A DNA stretch of 59,336 bases from a virus (Duplodnaviria; Caudoviricetes), in the IMG/VR virus record IMGVR_UViG_3300023106_000003, positions 1 to 59,336 of that record; one strand, written 5' to 3'. Shown piece by piece: positions 22,961 through 26,785 of this stretch (its first letter is position 1; the number at the start of each line of letters is the position of its first letter). The position numbers and the translations under genes were made by a program. Below the pieces are notes generated by a model. The model saw only the letters and a program-made list of their open reading frames with translations. It was not told the origin of the DNA and searched no databases.

Positions 22961-23208
22961 TTCTCAAACCCTTTCGCCCAACTTGCAACCGATCCGCCTG
23001 ACTTCATCACATCATCGCCACGCGTTCTCGATATATCAGATTCGAAAACAAGGCAATTATCATAGACGATTTGTGCGATGCTAATCTGCCGGCAGTACTC
23101 GTTCTTCGGACGGCTTTTTTTAAAAGCCATCATTTCCACTGTTGCCAGACAGCAGTCTAGCAAGTAGGCCAATGCGTCTGGCGCTGTGCGGACATTTTCT
23201 TTTCTCAT
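22957..23208 (-). CDS. Hypothetical protein
   Basis: Coupled to rha by a TAATG overlap. Confidence 0.6.
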   Translation of the reverse strand: MRKENVRTAPDALAYLLDCCLATVEMMAFKKSRPKNEYCRQISIAQIVYDNCLVFESDISRTRGDDVMKSGGSVASWAKGFEK

Positions 23209-23870
23209 TACATGCCTCCGTGCAGTTTAGTGAGCGCCGCTTCCAGCATCGACTCGTGATAACTGTTGACCGAGCCGAAGCGCGGATCGCGTACCTTGTC
23301 GACGGCGATGCCTTTCTCCTTGCTCAGCTTAGCAGCGGCACGGCCCAGCACCGCAGCGTCGGTCAGGCCGAACGAGATACCGCGATGGACGCCAAAGCCG
23401 ATCACGGTGAAGTATGAGGCGCCGTCCTCGAATGCTGACTGCTTCGACTCGATGCGCTTGATGGCTTCTGCCTGGCTGGCGATTTGCGCAGCTTGGGCCG
23501 CTTGCTCCTTCTTGATAGCCTCGTTCTCGATCATGACGCCGATCAAAGCGCGCTTGTCCGCTGGAAGCCCTGCCAATGGGTCGGCTACTGCCGCCTCCAG
23601 TTCCTGCCAGCGGTCAACCAGACGCGCCGTAAATTCCGGCGACAGTTGCGCAACCACGACATAGCTGTCGCGCTTACCGATAAGGTAAAGAACTTCCACC
23701 GTGTTGTTCCCTGCTTTTTCTCCGTCCACACGGTGTGGTTGGCCGATTACGCCTTTACCAGCAAGGATATCGATGGTGCGCTTGACGCTATCGTGGCGCT
23801 TCTCGGTGAGGTCAGCCATTTCGCGGCTGGTCATGGTTTGGGGCGCGGCCCCGGTGGTGATGATGTTCAT
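23208..23870 (-). CDS. rha: Rha-family regulatory/antirepressor protein
   Basis: TMTSREMADLTEKRHDSVKRTI...RDSYVVVAQLSPEFTARLVDRWQELE (Rha domain) and C-terminal DPRFGSVNSY. Confidence 0.85.
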   Translation of the reverse strand: MNIITTGAAPQTMTSREMADLTEKRHDSVKRTIDILAGKGVIGQPHRVDGEKAGNNTVEVLYLIGKRDSYVVVAQLSPEFTARLVDRWQELEAAVADPLAGLPADKRALIGVMIENEAIKKEQAAQAAQIASQAEAIKRIESKQSAFEDGASYFTVIGFGVHRGISFGLTDAAVLGRAAAKLSKEKGIAVDKVRDPRFGSVNSYHESMLEAALTKLHGGM

Positions 23871-23888
23871 GCTGTCCTTAAACGAAAA

Positions 23889-23992
23889 AAGACATTTAAG
23901 CGCGATCCCGTATTTCTACGGGTTGCAGGAACTGGTATCAGCTACCAGCCATCGCGCTTAAATGTCTTCACTGAATTTTCTGCACCCTGCAA
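23889..23992 (-). ncRNA. C4-type antisense RNA element with upstream target site, preceding rha
   Basis: Perfect 18-bp stem (23889-23906/23951-23968) enclosing two hairpins, with a U-tract after it on the minus strand. Junction CCTGCAA is complementary to upstream TTGCAGG. -10 TAGAAT at 24004-24009. Confidence 0.65.
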
Positions 23993-24023
23993 GGCACATT
24001 GCCATTCTACATCAACTTCAAAT

Positions 24024-24044
24024 AAAAGAACCAGCGAGCGCTGG
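24024..24044 (-). terminator. Intrinsic terminator ending the ncRNA cluster
   Basis: Minus strand ccagc-gctc-gctgg-ttctttt. Confidence 0.5.
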
Positions 24045-24175
24045 CGAAAAAAGGATTGGGCTTTCACCAAATGCCGCTTGTTAGGGCAAGCGTCTTGCGC
24101 TGACGATGGGAGGATAGCGCAATCTCCCGGGAGGCTCCTGCTGTTTAGCCCCAGCAGGCACGGCATCATCTTCCG

Positions 24176-24342
24176 TGGTAGACGGGCTTCGAACTGGGTG
24201 GTGCCGCTCTGCCGCTGAGCGTACCTCCTAAGACTGCAAGGAGGACGGGATTCGAACCCGCGCCTGCACCATTGATGATAGGCGGCCAGTGATGAACCTC
24301 TGGCTTTGCTGAATTCATTGTCATGTCTTGGTACGTCTACCA
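24176..24342 (-). ncRNA. Y-RNA/YrlA-like RNA containing a circularly permuted tRNA mimic (core 24199-24271)
   Basis: Minus strand: tggtgc-aggc-gcggg TTCGAAT cccgt-cctcct[tgcagtctt]aggagg-tac-gctc AGCGGCA gagc-g-gcacca. This is T arm, loop-closed acceptor stem, then D arm, all inside the outer stem tggtagacg/cgtctacca. Confidence 0.65.
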
Positions 24343-24417
24343 ATAAACTCCGGTGTCATGGTGGCGCGCACCAAATATACCCCGCAGCACAAGATTTTGC
24401 GGATCATCACTCCGCAA

Positions 24418-24528
24418 CGCCTAACAGATAAACTATGGAACTGACTTGAACAGTCAATCGAGGCCACCGAGCCAAGACATCCACCTGGAACCGCATGTAT
24501 GTCTGCGGCATAGTCTATCTGTTAGGCG
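24418..24528 (-). ncRNA. Structured element closed by a 20-bp inverted repeat
   Basis: cgcctaacagataaactatg / catagtctatctgttaggcg match at 19/20, and the mismatch is a G-U pair on the minus strand. Contains internal hairpins. Confidence 0.5.
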
Positions 24529-24785
24529 ACTGGGCTTCCACCAGTCCCGAGCTTTCGCTCTGGTATTCTAACGCTTCAGTATCTCGGCTTAGATTCCAGC
24601 GGATTGACCCACCTAAGGAATCGCGAAGCATCAAGAGGCGGCACATTGAATCGTGCAAGAGACCTCTAGCCGCTTTAGTCCGGCTAGTCTGCCGCCCATA
24701 TCCCTGAGCGCTACTGCGGTTTGGCTAAGCTGCACTGGTTGATCTAGGGCCGGTTCCCCAGCCCATCCAGCATTTGCTCTGCCCA

Positions 24786-24918
24786 TGGTGGCCGGTCGCT
24801 ACCCCGGCATAGCACTGTCTGACGTGCTCCACAAACCAAGCGCACGAACCTGGAAGCGCTTGGCTACACAACCTGATTTCCAGTCTTGGGCACCGATTTC
24901 AACTTTGCCCATTCACCA
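24786..24918 (-). ncRNA. tRNA-like (acceptor + T-arm-like) multi-hairpin RNA ending in ACCA
   Basis: Minus strand tggtg...[gggca/tgccc, agccaagcgc/gcgcttggtt, agcac/gtgct hairpins]...gccgg-ggtagcga-ccggc-cacca; begins just after the promoter. Confidence 0.55.
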
Positions 24919-24928
24919 CAGAAACTTC

Positions 24929-24957
24929 ATACTATCCAATCCACACCATGCCGTCAA
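24929..24957 (-). promoter_or_regulatory. Sigma70-type promoter driving the ncRNA cluster
   Basis: Minus strand TTGACG-17 nt-TAGTAT. Confidence 0.65.
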
Positions 24958-24982
24958 ACAATAGATGCGCGGTGTGGCGCGG

Positions 24983-25330
24983 TTACGACGCCTTGGCTTT
25001 CGACTTGGCGGTGACGACGACTGGTTCGGCAACCTTGTCCGCTTCAGCCGTCTTCTCGACGCCGAGCTGATACGGCATCCAGACGGCGTAGCCGCCACCT
25101 TCGGCCGGTGTGACGTCGCCGTACAGCGCGATCTTGGCTTTCGGGAAGTGCTGCCCGAAGATGTCGACCACCAGCACGTTGATGGTGTGCTCGTCGTGGA
25201 CGGCGATGATGGTGGCGTCCAGCGGGTCGGCGACGCCATCCTTCACCAGCACTTGCATGGCGACTGGATTGGTCAGGTCGCTATCGCTGGGGATGTAGTA
25301 CAGCTTGCGGCCTACGGTTGGTACTGGCAT
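24983..25330 (-). CDS. Conserved hypothetical phage protein
   Basis: PTVGRKLYY...A.I..V....INVLV.D...W.P pattern; RBS aaggag. Confidence 0.7.
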   Translation of the reverse strand: MPVPTVGRKLYYIPSDSDLTNPVAMQVLVKDGVADPLDATIIAVHDEHTINVLVVDIFGQHFPKAKIALYGDVTPAEGGGYAVWMPYQLGVEKTAEADKVAEPVVVTAKSKAKAS

Positions 25331-25376
25331 ATTGGCTCCTTGAGTTGCCTCCCTTGGCGCGGGGAGGCTGCGCGTT

Positions 25377-26270
25377 TTACTTGTCCATCTTCAGGAACGG
25401 CATCGGTGCGCCTGAGTACATATTGGTCGGCAGCGCACCATTCCAGCGCTTAGCCTTGATTTCCTCAACCTCGATGCGGCGCAGTTCCAGCACGTCTTTA
25501 TTCTGCGCCAGCGCAGCGTTTTGGATCTTCAGTGCTTCAGCCTGGGCCTTGGCGATGGTCAGGTCAGCATAGGCTTGGCCGTCAGCTTTGGCCGATAGTG
25601 CGCGCGCCTCAGCTTCGGCAACAGCGACTTTCTGCTTCTGCTCTGACTCAACCGTCTTGAGTTTGTTTTCGGCACCAAGGCGCAACTGCTCTTGCGTTAC
25701 CTTCTCGTTGATGGCCTTCATATACTCCGGTCCGAACGAGAAGTTGCGCATGTCGATGTTGATAACCTGTGCTCCGTACTGCGCCAGCTTCTGACGCAAT
25801 GCCGTGCTGATGTCGGAAGATACTTGCGACCGCTTGCTAATCAAGTCCGGCGCCGTGTAGCGAGCCGTCACAGCCTTGAACACTTCAGCAGCCGCCGTCT
25901 GCACGTAGCTCGAAAGATTACCATCATGGCTGTACTTCTCGTAGACCTCAGAGACTCGATCAATGGCAATCGAGTAACGCACCGTCATACTGACCTTCAC
26001 AGGCTGAGTGTCTGCCGTGCTGCCGTCTGCATTTTCGATAGTCGCTTCCTCGGCGCGAATACTGAAGACAGAAAGCTTCTGCCACGGCGGAACGAATACC
26101 AGACCTTCCTGCTCGACGCCCTTGATAGCGCCAAACTGCGTGATGACGCCACGATTCCCGGTAGGCACGCTACTGAAAGGCCACAGCCACAGAACCATGA
26201 TAAACCCGACTACTCCGATGATGCTATTGCGAATGGTCTTACCGTTCAAACTAATCCCTTGGGTATTCAT
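25377..26270 (-). CDS. SPFH/band-7/prohibitin family membrane protein
   Basis: Start at ATG 26270 (RBS aaaggag). TM anchor, VPTGNRGVITQFG, SPFH core, coiled coil and KRWNGALP. Confidence 0.9.
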   Translation of the reverse strand: MNTQGISLNGKTIRNSIIGVVGFIMVLWLWPFSSVPTGNRGVITQFGAIKGVEQEGLVFVPPWQKLSVFSIRAEEATIENADGSTADTQPVKVSMTVRYSIAIDRVSEVYEKYSHDGNLSSYVQTAAAEVFKAVTARYTAPDLISKRSQVSSDISTALRQKLAQYGAQVINIDMRNFSFGPEYMKAINEKVTQEQLRLGAENKLKTVESEQKQKVAVAEAEARALSAKADGQAYADLTIAKAQAEALKIQNAALAQNKDVLELRRIEVEEIKAKRWNGALPTNMYSGAPMPFLKMDK

Positions 26271-26314
26271 TATTTCTCCTTTGGTGCCGCACTGATCGTG
26301 GCGCGGCTTCACGT

Positions 26315-26785
26315 TTAATCGTGGACGCTTGCAACGTTGACGCGGTGCGACAGCCGGCGACACACTTCCTCAGCAGCACGCGCAACGTCGATGTAGCGGC
26401 AGCACGTCACCTGTGCATCATGGCTGGACATAGCCGCGTTCATGGTCTGCAACTCGTCGCCGGTGAACAGGTAGCGCTGCGTTTTCTTGGCGCGCAGCAC
26501 ACAGGCCAGCATGACGTCACGTGCTGCTTTGAATTCCTCCACGTACTCGTTTCCTATGCCTTGTTCACACATGACGAGAGCCATGTTTATTGCTCCGTTC
26601 ACGCGATTCCAAAAATCGGGATTGCCTCGACCCTGCGCTATTGCTGCCATCGCCTGGTGGTTCTTGATGAGCGTTGACTGCAGGCTTTCCACATGCTGGT
26701 CGCTCATGCCGCCGAAAAAGGTCACGGCTGGGTTGCGCGCGACGTACTTCGGGCCTTGGTATTTTTTGTTACGCGGCTTCTTCAT
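26315..26785 (-). CDS. Conserved hypothetical phage protein
   Basis: MKKPRNKKY...FTGDELQTM...HDAQ pattern. Confidence 0.65.
   Translation of the reverse strand: MKKPRNKKYQGPKYVARNPAVTFFGGMSDQHVESLQSTLIKNHQAMAAIAQGRGNPDFWNRVNGAINMALVMCEQGIGNEYVEEFKAARDVMLACVLRAKKTQRYLFTGDELQTMNAAMSSHDAQVTCCRYIDVARAAEEVCRRLSHRVNVASVHD

What the first reader, a model, noticed from the sequence alone, without database searches (positions are those of the whole stretch)
24024..24957. ~900-nt non-coding transcription unit built as an array of tRNA-like modules
Seen: in an otherwise gap-free genome, ~900 nt on the minus strand has no convincing gene and lies between a good promoter (TTGACG-17-TAGTAT) and a terminator. 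It resolves into back-to-back folded modules. A (24786-24918) is tggtg...cacca with a terminal hairpin gccgg-GGTAGCGA-ccggc. B (~24523-24785) ends gagc-GAAA-gctc then gactgg-TGGAAGC-ccagtc. C (24418-24528) has a 20-bp closing stem. Y (24176-24342) is a permuted tRNA mimic ending ACCA. D (24053-24174) ends ttgg-TGAAAGC-ccaa-tcc. Modules A, B and D end in a T-arm-like hairpin next to a short acceptor-like stem, and A and Y end in ACCA. Known: this top-half geometry is what RNase P recognises, and P1 C4 and P4 CI RNAs are matured by RNase P. Inference: a polycistronic precursor cut by host tRNA-processing enzymes into several stable sRNAs with different payload domains, possibly decoys for anticodon nucleases, RNA-binding toxins or other anti-phage sensors. 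This is my best candidate for an undescribed system.
Basis: partly seen in the sequence, partly recalled or inferred. Interest (0 to 1): 0.88.

Follow-up and report, generated by a model that had tools for sequence, protein, structure and literature searches.

The report
Phage tRNA-array locus without tRNAs
A 900-base noncoding stretch of a phage genome sits where related phages keep transfer-RNA gene clusters, but here the transfer RNAs are replaced by other folded RNA modules, one a rearranged transfer-RNA look-alike, whose jobs are unknown.

Summary
Window 24024-24957 (minus strand) of a complete 59-kb phage has a promoter-like site, a terminator-like site and no ORF with a family hit. It folds better than shuffles and matches no Rfam family or tRNA.

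The context comes from relatives. L150 is 98% identical over the 3' module and the start of the next gene, and it carries four canonical tRNA genes in the same frame. Phage G001 has a comparable promoter-to-terminator unit that combines the window's module-C frame with a tRNA. A metagenome contig keeps the promoter region and module C but replaces modules A+B and the three-way junction with other sequence.

So this is a mosaic stable-RNA operon of the phage tRNA-cluster type, and this allele holds no canonical tRNA. Module Y is a complete, circularly permuted tRNA body: ARAGORN calls it a tRNA in 4 of 4 in-silico re-permutations and in 0 native. It has the architecture of the YrlA tRNA-like domain but fails YrlA membership. 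An 83-nt three-way junction shows 5 compensatory pair changes against one homologue, with near-invariant junction strands.

Processing by host tRNA enzymes and any decoy role are inferred, not shown. I rate it a new variant of a known kind, with several undescribed RNA motifs.

The parts
24929..24957 (-). Sigma-70-type promoter-like site TTGACG-17-TAGTAT; predicted start near 24922
   Evidence: 9 of 12 matches; the only promoter-like site in 23500-25500. A metagenome contig keeps 24938-25100 while replacing what follows (X4 record 13).
24786..24918 (-). Module A: 5-bp closing stem UGGUG/CACCA enclosing five hairpins
   Evidence: MFE equals centroid, z -2.06, 5 of 200 shuffles as good. Contigs of runs X2 and X24 break at 24783/24784, the A|B border. 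No homologue outside near-identical metagenome contigs.
24710..24785 (-). Module B, 5' part (GNRA-capped hairpins); no divergent homologue found
   Evidence: 24640-24785 z -1.33, not significant; searches found no relatives.
24636..24709 (-). B-sub module: closing stem with two hairpins, shared with L150 and with contigs of runs X2 and X5
   Evidence: 24707-24661 = L150, 87% over 47 nt, 6 differences. Reading, the 3 differences in hairpin 1 turn C-G, U-A and A-U into U.G, U.G and G.U, so pairing survives only on this strand. Hairpin 2 is replaced by another hairpin; 24661-24735 present in X2 and X5; 24696 G.U to A-U.
24547..24635 (-). Module B, 3' part, ending in the GAAA-capped hairpin
   Evidence: z -1.65, 16 of 200. 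The X4 contig breakpoint lies at 24553/24554.
24418..24546 (-). Module C frame: hairpin GACUGG..CCAGUC followed directly by a 19-bp stem (GCCUAACAG.../...CUGUUAGGC) that encloses a four-hairpin interior
   Evidence: z -6.60, 0 of 200. G001 has the same hairpin stem and the same first 9 bp of the long stem, a different stem extension that still pairs, and an unrelated interior. 24400-24553 is kept in contigs of X2 and X4.
24307..24389 (-). Three-way-junction motif: P1 24389-24385/24311-24307, P2 hairpin, P3 hairpin, near-invariant junction strands
   Evidence: G003, 79% identity, E 3.7e-13. P1+P3 = 11 pairs, 5 with both sides changed, 0 broken. The junction strands GACACCGGAGUUUA and GACAUGACAAUGA are identical in both. 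The X4 contig replaces exactly 24308-24399 with 50 other letters (joint side is only 30 letters). Model R1 finds only these two copies.
24199..24271 (-). Module Y core: circularly permuted tRNA body. Order: anticodon-stem 3' strand, variable loop, T-arm, acceptor 3' strand, 7-nt cap loop GCAGUCU, acceptor 5' strand, U8-A9, D-arm, anticodon-stem 5' strand. There is no anticodon loop.
   Evidence: YrlA model positions 26-82, 22.3 bits. (MFE is the permuted cloverleaf). (ARAGORN at default settings calls a 73-74-nt tRNA in 4 of 4 re-permuted joins, 0 in native order). X2 and X4 carry a diverged allele with the same cap loop.
24046..24198 (-). Conserved 3' trailer and module D: tRNA 3'-fragment-like start (UUCGAAGCCCGUCUACCA), two CCUCCC motifs (24134, 24113) flanking GGGAG, and a hairpin with loop UGAAAGC
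   Evidence: 24198-23812 = L150 at 98.2% over 387 nt, starting right after the CCA of L150 tRNA-Cys. Present in contigs of X2, X4 and X5. (motif positions). Not more stable than shuffles (z 0.00).
24024..24045 (-). Intrinsic terminator-like hairpin GCCAGC/GCUGGU with a U run
   Evidence: The identical site is found in L150.

Best explanation
The region is a phage stable-RNA operon of the tRNA-gene-cluster type. One promoter drives a ~900-nt noncoding transcript to one terminator, and that transcript is a string of independently folding RNA cassettes. In related phages the same frame (promoter at the front, conserved trailer, module D and terminator at the end) holds canonical tRNA genes interleaved with some of the same non-tRNA cassettes. 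In this phage every canonical tRNA slot is occupied by something else. The slot of the last tRNA holds a circularly permuted tRNA body with a capped acceptor stem and an open anticodon stem, which is the architecture of the tRNA-like domain of bacterial YrlA Y RNAs. Cassettes are exchanged among relatives by recombination at cassette borders.

Inferred, not shown: the precursor is cut by host enzymes that mature tRNA operons. These would be RNase P at the acceptor of the permuted tRNA-like domain (as shown for M. smegmatis YrlA), RNase III at the 19-bp stem of module C, and RNase E-type cuts in spacers. The products would be several stable small RNAs. The tRNA-like piece would act as a tRNA-shape mimic. 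The strongly conserved 3' module, with two CCUCCC motifs, would act as a terminator-proximal regulatory sRNA.
For: Noncoding unit:
- Promoter-like and terminator-like sites lie at the two ends.
- The ORFs inside have no family hit and are not conserved.
- z -3.66 on the minus strand; the plus strand is 33 kcal/mol weaker.

tRNA-cluster homology:
- L150 matches 24198-23812 at 98.2% and 24707-24661 at 87%. Between those matches it carries tRNA-His, Phe, Gly and Cys plus one sub-threshold tRNA.
- G001 has a unit with a promoter-like site (10 of 12) and a terminator. It holds the module-C frame, tRNA-Gly and an odd tRNA-like element.
- tRNA genes were found in 3 of the 5 related records searched.

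Cassette exchange:
- One 1063-nt contig (X4 record 13) is collinear with 24938-25100, 24400-24553 and 24278-24307. It has 229 and 50 other letters in place of A+B and of the three-way junction.
- Contigs break at 24783/24784 and at 24661.

RNA-level constraint:
- Three-way junction: 5 of 11 P1+P3 pairs changed on both sides and none is broken.
- B-sub: 3 of 3 stem changes are wobble-compatible on this strand only.
- Of 4 substitutions seen in metagenome contigs, 3 fall on predicted pairs and keep them (A-U to G.U twice, G.U to A-U once) and 1 is unpaired.

Permuted tRNA. A second allele with the same cap loop but a different acceptor stem and D-loop exists in X2 and X4.

Precedents:
- The T4 transcript gives eight tRNAs plus species I and II RNAs (PMC2330249, one passage).
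Against:
- Covariation rests on single homologues: two sequences per module.
- Modules D, B, Y and the three-way junction are not more stable than shuffles on their own.
- The acceptor stem of Y has 6 pairs plus a U-U mismatch, not 7. The YrlA paper attributes RNase P cleavage to a 7-bp stem.
- No canonical tRNA is present here, so the unit could be a decaying array.
- The G003 unit lies at a different genome position, and its promoter fails the scan criteria.
- One X4 joint has only 30 letters on its short side. The tool warns such joints can come from other organisms.
Confidence: 0.6

Rival explanations
1. This is a decaying remnant of a tRNA array. The phage lost its tRNAs through recombination and deletion between tRNA-like sequences. 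What remains (tRNA halves, spacers, hitch-hiking hairpins) is transcribed junk or is not used at all.
For: - 0 canonical tRNAs.
- tRNA fragments: UUCGAA followed by CCCGUC occurs twice (24256 and 24193), and the trailer begins like a truncated tRNA 3' end.
- The cap loop of Y resembles 'discriminator + CCA + spacer' of the tandem tRNAs in L150 and G001, which is what fusion of two tandem copies would leave (by eye).
- D, B, Y and the three-way junction are not unusually stable.
- Extreme mosaicism.
Against: - The promoter-like and terminator-like sites are intact.
- The non-tRNA cassettes (C frame, B-sub, D) also occur inside arrays that still have working tRNAs.
- Stems change with compensation while junction strands stay invariant.
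- Y keeps every arm and passes ARAGORN when re-permuted, and it exists as two diverged alleles with the same design.
- Pieces at 95-99% identity occur in contigs of runs from different studies: X2, X4, X5.
Confidence: 0.17
2. Module Y is a true Y RNA (YrlA family). It binds the host Ro60 orthologue (Rsr) and redirects the Rsr/PNPase RNA-degradation machine. The rest of the unit consists of companion Y-like RNAs.
For: The best Rfam match of the whole unit is YrlA, aligned over T-arm, closed acceptor hairpin and D-arm (22.3 bits, E 0.066). The paper reports 22 bacteriophages with YrlA-related sequences and several Y RNAs per locus (PMC4201824, passages).
Against: - The score is far below the gathering score of 69 and covers model positions 26-82 only; the Ro60-binding ends do not align.
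- The GNCGAAN0-1G motif that the paper ties to Rsr binding occurs 0 times in the unit.
- The phage has no TROVE/Ro60 gene, whereas the paper found YrlA within 4 kb of Ro60 on the same strand.
- The host is unknown.
Confidence: 0.07
3. The cassettes are counter-defence decoys. Stable tRNA-shaped or other RNAs would titrate host tRNA-targeting nucleases, RNA-binding toxins or sensors.
For: Only circumstantial. The locus is accessory and hypervariable in a phage early region, with rapid cassette turnover. It contains a tRNA mimic. Phage tRNAs that escape tRNA-targeting defence are discussed in the literature (search listing only).
Against: Y has no anticodon loop, so it cannot mimic the substrate site of anticodon nucleases. 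No defence or anti-defence protein is linked to the unit.
Confidence: 0.12
4. The unit is one large single functional RNA, of the kind of the big phage-associated ncRNAs, and not an array of separate RNAs.
For: The global MFE pairs the 5' end with a region ~700 nt downstream. Size and phage context resemble the large ncRNAs found near phage tRNAs (recalled, not tested beyond Rfam).
Against: Relatives keep single cassettes and replace others, which a single co-folded RNA would not tolerate. There is no Rfam match, even sub-threshold, to any large ncRNA family.
Confidence: 0.04

Closest known systems
Phage T4 tRNA gene cluster with species I and II stable RNAs
   Same: One transcription unit in a phage that yields tRNAs plus non-tRNA stable RNAs of unknown function (PMC2330249, Discussion passage). 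The relatives L150 and G001 have exactly this mix.
   Different: The window's allele holds no canonical tRNA. No sequence similarity to cultured phages was found. The cassettes are exchanged between relatives. No homing-endonuclease ORF lies inside the unit.
YrlA (Y RNA-like, Rfam RF02553) tRNA-like domain
   Same: The same permuted order: T-arm, acceptor-like hairpin closed by a loop, D-arm, with an open 'anticodon' stem running into the rest of the RNA. The T-loop and D-loop nucleotides are conserved (PMC4201824 passages).
   Different: 22.3 bits against a gathering score of 69. There is no GNCGAAN0-1G motif and no Ro60 gene in the phage. The element sits in a tRNA-array slot and not next to rsr.
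Canonical tRNA (RF00005) and permuted tRNA or two-piece tmRNA genes
   Same: All four arms and the conserved loop nucleotides of a tRNA are present. The 3'-half-before-5'-half gene order is that of permuted tRNA genes and of two-piece tmRNA genes (the latter recalled, not tested beyond ARAGORN).
   Different: There is no anticodon loop, no encoded CCA after the acceptor 3' strand, and no tag reading frame. ARAGORN at default settings finds neither tRNA nor tmRNA. I found no bacterial pathway in print that would re-join such a gene (search listing).
Twister-sister ribozyme (RF02681)
   Same: Module D aligns over the full model. It matches the GCAAG strand of loop L1 and the hairpin loop GUG.AAGCC, which the structure paper names as conserved.
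   Different: 15.5 bits against 34; E 0.73 even for the 191-nt stretch alone. The two nucleotides aligned to A63-U64 are missing, and A63 is essential. Two P2 pairs are non-standard. The 3' strand of the match is the terminator hairpin.
P1/P7 C4 and P4 CI RNAs
   Different: Those are single antisense immunity RNAs in immunity regions of temperate phages. Here there is an array in a tRNA-cluster frame, and no integrase or resolvase in the phage.

Membership tests
YrlA (RF02553) | Covariance-model score at or above the Rfam gathering score (69 bits) | tested here: not met
   22.3 bits, E 0.066, model positions 26-82 of 114 only. No hit at gathering threshold in the whole window.
YrlA (RF02553) | tRNA-like domain in the order T-arm, closed acceptor-like stem-loop, D-arm | tested here: met
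   Alignment; the MFE of 24196-24304 gives this fold; re-permutation gives an ARAGORN tRNA in 4 of 4 joins.
YrlA (RF02553) | GNCGAAN0-1G motif near the 5' end (proposed Ro60/Rsr contact; PMC4201824) | tested here: not met
   0 matches to the motif in the 941-nt unit.
YrlA (RF02553) | Encoded within about 4 kb of a Ro60 (TROVE) gene on the same strand (PMC4201824) | tested here: not met
   No TROVE match at E <= 1 in the complete 59,336-bp phage; the control search rang in 2 of 14 genomes. Host genome unknown.
tRNA (RF00005) | Contiguous cloverleaf with an anticodon loop, recognised by tRNA finders | tested here: not met
   ARAGORN finds 0 genes in the window; there is no tRNA hit even at E <= 10 in 23800-25100. 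Only the in-silico permuted form is called.
Phage tRNA gene cluster with accompanying stable RNAs (T4 type) | Single promoter-to-terminator unit without protein genes | tested here: met
   Pattern scan only plus absence of supported ORFs. Transcription itself is not testable with these tools.
Phage tRNA gene cluster with accompanying stable RNAs (T4 type) | Contains functional tRNA genes | tested here: not met
   None in the window. Present in the homologous units of L150 (4 above the cut-off) and G001 (1 inside the unit, 1 just after it).
Phage tRNA gene cluster with accompanying stable RNAs (T4 type) | Precursor processed by host RNase P and other RNases into stable RNAs | not testable with these tools
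   Needs end-mapped RNA data or in vitro cleavage assays.
Twister-sister ribozyme (RF02681) | Score at or above 34 bits, and the conserved L1 3' strand including the cleavage-site A63 | tested here: not met
   15.5 bits. The two positions after GCUC are deleted in the alignment. A63U abolishes activity (PMC5660989 passages).
Large phage-associated ncRNA families held in Rfam (GOLLD, ROOL; names recalled) | Any covariance-model match | tested here: not met
   Only 5 sub-threshold matches to 4227 families at E <= 10, none to a large ncRNA.

The most novel reading that the evidence does not exclude
Phage tRNA arrays of this group are general 'RNA cassette arrays'. They would be recombination-driven carriers in which tRNAs, tRNA mimics and unrelated structured RNAs are swapped like integron cassettes and released by the host's tRNA-processing machinery. 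At least one cassette would be a new functional RNA class: the 83-nt three-way junction, with ~38 near-invariant junction nucleotides and freely covarying stems, would be a ribozyme, a ligand- or protein-binding aptamer, or a counter-defence decoy. The Ro60-independent permuted tRNA domain would show that the YrlA-type tRNA mimic is a free-standing module used outside Y RNAs.
Probability: 0.2. Interest if true: 0.85.

Novelty: new variant of a known kind. Interest (0 to 1): 0.55.

Why it matters
Phage tRNA clusters are usually read as codon-supply or anti-defence tRNA sets. Here a cluster frame persists with a promoter and terminator but no tRNA, and its non-tRNA cassettes are shared with tRNA-bearing arrays and show RNA-level constraint. 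If those cassettes are functional, tRNA arrays are also delivery vehicles for other structured RNAs.

The finding yields concrete new RNA motifs to test: the three-way junction, the module-C frame, B-sub and the CCUCCC-bearing 3' module. It also gives the first case I could find of a YrlA-type permuted tRNA domain with none of the Ro60 hallmarks. My searches for a description of such a domain in phage tRNA arrays (listings only) returned nothing that describes one. That makes the function of the tRNA-like module of Y RNAs testable apart from Ro60.

Tried and rejected
**Homologue searches that found nothing**
- blastn 'distant' of 23900-25000 against 50,697 phage records: no match.
- blastn and nhmmer of the unit against 3 loci next to relatives of the 115-aa neighbour, 80 Rha loci and 45 SPFH loci: nothing.
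- Exact word from the T-arm region in viral contigs: 0.
- Words from the promoter region: 0. A word from the downstream leader: only L150 again.
- Three-way-junction patterns: viral contigs gave 2 stretches, 1 true (G003) and 1 inside a coding gene of an AT-rich phage. Metagenome contigs gave 7 and genome contigs 4 (three Castellaniella species, one Roseobacter MAG). I judged 0 of these 11 homologous on reading them.
- Unit against 401 Burkholderiales genomes: 4 weak hits. The best two were read and lie in what looks like a conserved protein gene. No tRNA in any of the 4 loci.
- Model R1 (three-way junction): only the window and G003 in 57 sources (588,638 bases) and 0 of 5 related records.
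- G001 unit against cultured phages: all 12 listed of 55 matching records fall on its tRNA-Gly segment (query ~468-546).
- C-frame and permuted-tRNA patterns in 162 loci: only the window and G001 for the first, only the window for the second.

**Expression**
- No RNA holder listed. X24, labelled RNA, is probably DNA and covers only small parts.
- Stretches without contig cover in the laid runs (for example 24228-24391 in X2) are not used as evidence.

**Explanations considered and rejected**
- Twister-sister reading of module D.
- attP-type tRNA fragment: no integrase or resolvase.
- Retron-type ncRNA: no reverse transcriptase.
- Small-ORF reading of the conserved AUGACAAUGA: the frame is 52 codons here and 8 in G003.
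- ARAGORN at 75% thresholds gives many mutually overlapping calls that I did not trust.
- A shared 11-mer (GGGCUGGGGAA) between the window and G001 is about what chance gives.
- tRNAs lie near the SPFH gene in only 6 of 45 loci, so there is no general link.

**Tools and sources not available**
- Supplementary tables of PMC4201824, which list phage YrlA loci, could not be seen. They may bear on whether Ro60-less phage YrlA-like RNAs were already noted.
Full report

The window is a complete virus record of 59,336 bp with direct terminal repeats. Its minus strand between ~31.7 kb and ~20 kb is a run of early-type genes. These include a replication-initiator O-like protein and a DnaB-like helicase, an SPFH/Band-7 protein at 25377-26363, an unknown 115-aa protein at 24983-25330 and a Rha/Ant-like regulator at 23208-23870.

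Between the 115-aa gene and rha lies the reported stretch. The pattern scan finds TTGACG-17-TAGTAT at 24957..24929 and a terminator-like hairpin with a U run at 24045..24030, both on the minus strand. The ORFs inside are short. The longest is 133 aa with a TTG start, and it has no Pfam or PHROG hit.

The 902-nt minus-strand RNA folds at -365.3 kcal/mol against -329.0 +/- 9.9 for 20 shuffles (z -3.66). The opposite strand reaches only -332.5. Rfam at gathering thresholds finds nothing in the whole window, and ARAGORN finds no tRNA or tmRNA. So the unit is real, noncoding by every test available, and not a member of a curated RNA family.

**The relatives give the context**

Similarity searches with the unit itself mostly failed. 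Three relatives were found in other ways.

1. L150 is a 6,162-nt viral contig that begins inside its own copy of the unit. It matches window 24198-23812 at 98.2% over 387 nt, covering the 3' trailer, module D, the terminator, the spacer and the start of rha. It also matches 24707-24661 at 87%. Between these two matches it carries tRNA-His(gtg), tRNA-Phe(gaa), tRNA-Gly(tcc) and tRNA-Cys(gca), all by ARAGORN and by Rfam tRNA at 36.6-69.2 bits, plus a fifth sub-threshold tRNA at 23.3 bits. Similarity to the window resumes at the CCA of tRNA-Cys.

2. G001 is a complete 59,224-bp phage whose SPFH protein is 89% identical to the window's. Just upstream of its SPFH gene it has a comparable unit, with TTGACT-16-TAGAAT (10 of 12) and a strong terminator. 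That unit contains the window's module-C frame, about 300 nt of other RNA, tRNA-Gly at 61.9 bits, an odd tRNA-like element and a CU-rich trailer.

3. G003 is a complete 62,657-bp phage. It has a ~430-nt ORF-poor unit with a terminator that holds a copy of the window's three-way junction.

tRNA genes were found in 3 of the 5 related records searched. The window's unit therefore occupies the frame of a phage tRNA gene cluster, and its non-tRNA modules are normal companions of tRNAs in such clusters.

**The unit is a mosaic of exchangeable cassettes**

Parts of the stretch occur in contigs of 24 public DNA runs from 22 studies, one of which is probably the source. I laid four runs on it. All are contigs, so they show presence and joints only.

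One 1,063-nt contig (X4 record 13) is collinear with three window segments:
- 24938-25100: the end of the 115-aa gene and the -35 side of the promoter.
- 24400-24553: the hairpin plus module C.
- 24278-24307.

In that contig, 229 other letters replace 24554-24937 (modules A and B), and 50 other letters replace 24308-24399. The second replacement is exactly the three-way junction plus its short 5' linker. This second joint has only 30 letters on its short side, which the tool flags as weak.

Contigs of X2 and X5 carry 24661-24735 with different flanks, matching L150. Contigs of X2 and X4 diverge at 24209 into a sequence that reads as a second allele of module Y. Cassette borders thus coincide with recombination breakpoints.

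**Module Y is a circularly permuted tRNA body**

The only Rfam match of note is YrlA (RF02553), aligned over T-arm, a closed hairpin and D-arm at 22.3 bits, E 0.066, model positions 26-82.

Read on tRNA numbering, 24271-24199 runs in this order:
- anticodon-stem 3' strand
- five-nucleotide variable loop
- T-arm with the canonical UUCGAAU loop
- acceptor 3' strand CCUCCU
- cap loop GCAGUCU
- acceptor 5' strand AGGAGG
- U8-A9
- D-arm whose loop keeps the GG
- anticodon-stem 5' strand

Folded alone, the MFE is this permuted cloverleaf. As a direct test, a script cut the element in the cap loop and joined it across the open anticodon end in four ways. ARAGORN at default thresholds called a 73-74-nt tRNA in 4 of 4 joins, and 0 in the native order.

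The allele seen in X2 and X4 keeps the cap loop but has a different acceptor 5' strand and D-loop. Only 30 letters are visible, so I could not check that its acceptor partner strand is compensated.

Its limits are not. The 'ACCA' at 24179 lies in the trailer shared with L150.

**The three-way junction (24307-24389)**

Against the G003 copy (79% identity over 90 nt, E 3.7e-13):
- P1 has 5 pairs, 1 changed on both sides.
- P3 has 6 pairs, 4 changed on both sides, with an identical GACG loop.
- None of these 11 pairs is broken.
- P2 is a hairpin in both, with different length and loop.
- The junction strands are almost invariant. GACACCGGAGUUUA and GACAUGACAAUGA are identical, and there is one change in each of the other two stretches.

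This pattern of free stems and frozen junctions is what functional tertiary-structured RNAs show, but it rests on two sequences. Thermodynamics alone does not find this fold (z -0.30). No further copy was found with patterns or with a covariance model.

**Module C, B-sub, module D and module A**

Module C is a hairpin (stem GACUGG/CCAGUC) abutting a 19-bp stem that encloses four small hairpins (z -6.60). G001 has the same hairpin stem and the same first 9 bp of the long stem. Its stem extension differs but still pairs, and its interior is unrelated. So the frame is conserved and the payload is swapped. A perfect duplex of this length is the kind of substrate RNase III cuts in rRNA and phage precursors. 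That is established knowledge, and its application here is inference.

B-sub (24636-24709) differs from L150 at 6 of 47 positions. The 3 differences in hairpin 1 all convert Watson-Crick pairs to G.U, which preserves pairing on this strand only. The second hairpin is replaced by a different hairpin.

Of the 4 substitutions that metagenome contigs show inside the unit, 3 fall on predicted pairs and keep them, and 1 is unpaired.

Module D and the trailer are the most conserved part: 98% in L150, and present in X2, X4 and X5. They are not unusually stable (z 0.00). They carry two CCUCCC motifs around a GGGAG. G001's analogous trailer is also CU-rich and weakly resembles a betaproteobacterial toxic sRNA (30.6 bits against a gathering score of 50). 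An anti-Shine-Dalgarno-type regulatory sRNA next to the terminator is a reasonable but untested reading.

**Mechanism: shown versus inferred**

Shown by computation:
- A noncoding unit bounded by promoter-like and terminator-like sites.
- Homology of its frame to tRNA arrays.
- Cassette mosaicism.
- A complete permuted tRNA body.
- Strand-specific, pair-preserving variation in three cassettes.

Inferred:
- That the unit is transcribed as one precursor.
- That host RNase P, RNase III and RNase E-type enzymes cut it into stable RNAs.

Two precedents bear on this. The T4 ~1.75-kb precursor yields eight tRNAs plus species I and II RNAs (PMC2330249, one Discussion passage). M. smegmatis YrlA is cut by RNase P in its acceptor loop and receives CCA in vivo. 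The authors attribute that to its 7-bp acceptor stem (PMC4201824, passages). Y has 6 pairs plus a U-U mismatch, so cleavage is uncertain.

What the RNAs do is unknown. Y cannot imitate an anticodon-nuclease substrate because it has no anticodon loop. It could imitate the tRNA elbow and acceptor.

**Rivals**

- Decaying-array reading (0.17). Favoured by the absence of tRNAs and by tRNA fragments: UUCGAA followed by CCCGUC occurs twice, and the trailer looks like a truncated tRNA 3' end. Weakened by the intact signals, the covariation, the two alleles of Y and the presence of the same cassettes in arrays with working tRNAs.
- True Y RNA acting with host Ro60 (0.07). Fails three of four family features.
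- Counter-defence decoys (0.12). Compatible with the best explanation but without evidence.
- One single large RNA (0.04). Contradicted by the cassette exchange.
- Coding. Unsupported.

**Comparison, novelty and score**

This works like a T4-type tRNA/stable-RNA cluster, and Y works like the YrlA tRNA-like domain. It is a member of neither in the strict sense, because it has no tRNA, no Ro60 features and a sub-threshold score.

The twister-sister resemblance of module D is below any threshold and lacks the essential A63.

My literature searches (listings only) turned up no description of permuted tRNA-like domains or of these cassettes in phage tRNA arrays. The library is limited to open-access papers, and the supplements of the YrlA paper were closed.

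I rate it a new variant of a known kind with undescribed RNA motifs, interest 0.55. The most novel reading still open is that these are general RNA cassette arrays and that the three-way junction is a new functional RNA class. I give that about 0.2.

**Limits**

- Each covariation statement rests on one homologue.
- The host is unknown. The nearest cultured capsids are 32-35% identical, from Stenotrophomonas, Xanthomonas and Pseudomonas phages.

Noticed in passing
window 23871-24023 (minus strand), mainly 23891-23966: Between the unit's terminator and the rha start codon (23870) a 14-bp stem (GACAUUUAAGCGCG / CGCGCUUAAAUGUC) encloses ~48 nt with inner hairpins. A U6 run follows, then the ribosome-binding site. 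This looks like an attenuator or leader. It is 98% conserved in L150 and present in contigs of four runs. X4 shows 10 substitutions at 23952-23984, but their partner strand lies outside the aligned piece.
   Followed up: partly
L085 3208-3289 (G001): Right after tRNA-Gly lies an odd tRNA-like element. It has a 6-bp acceptor stem (GCAGUG/CACUGC), a good T-arm (loop UUCAAGU) next to the 3' strand, an ACCA end, and ~49 nt in place of the D and anticodon arms. ARAGORN at default settings and Rfam do not call it. ARAGORN at 75% thresholds calls 'tRNA-???'.
   Followed up: partly
L150 6011-6063 (minus strand): A minihelix-like tRNA 'top half': a 7-bp acceptor stem (CCAACGA/UCGUUGG), a T-arm with loop UUCGACU and a 20-nt linker replacing the D and anticodon arms, followed by CA. 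Seen by eye.
   Followed up: no
L085 3299-3344 (G001): The 3' trailer of G001's array (a CU-rich stretch plus terminator) matches Rfam Betaproteobacteria_toxic_sRNA at 30.6 bits (gathering score 50, E 6.7e-4) and more weakly anti-hemB and mmgR. This hints at an anti-Shine-Dalgarno sRNA at the end of these arrays and at a betaproteobacterial host.
   Followed up: no
L150 and L085, spacers after each tRNA: Every tRNA in these arrays encodes its CCA and is followed by a similar short spacer (AGUUUCAG, AGUUUUAU, GUUUCAAA, GAUUCAAG, AGUUCGAAG). The window's module Y is followed by the last of these. This may be a shared processing signal.
   Followed up: no
window 24027-24105 (minus strand): A sub-threshold full-length alignment to the twister-sister ribozyme model. 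It matches the conserved GCAAG strand and the GUG.AAGCC hairpin loop but lacks the A63-U64 positions and uses the terminator as its 3' strand. The single variant in relatives (24101 A to G) would keep the proposed P1 pair as G.U.
   Followed up: partly
window 25377-26363 and loci L085-L129: The SPFH/Band-7 gene is shared at 57-89% identity with 45 viral contigs (57.3% is the lowest, L125), while almost none of its neighbours are. It behaves as a mobile accessory gene. In G001 the region between SPFH and a p107-like gene lacks the window's 115-aa gene, the RNA unit, rha and four further genes.
   Followed up: partly
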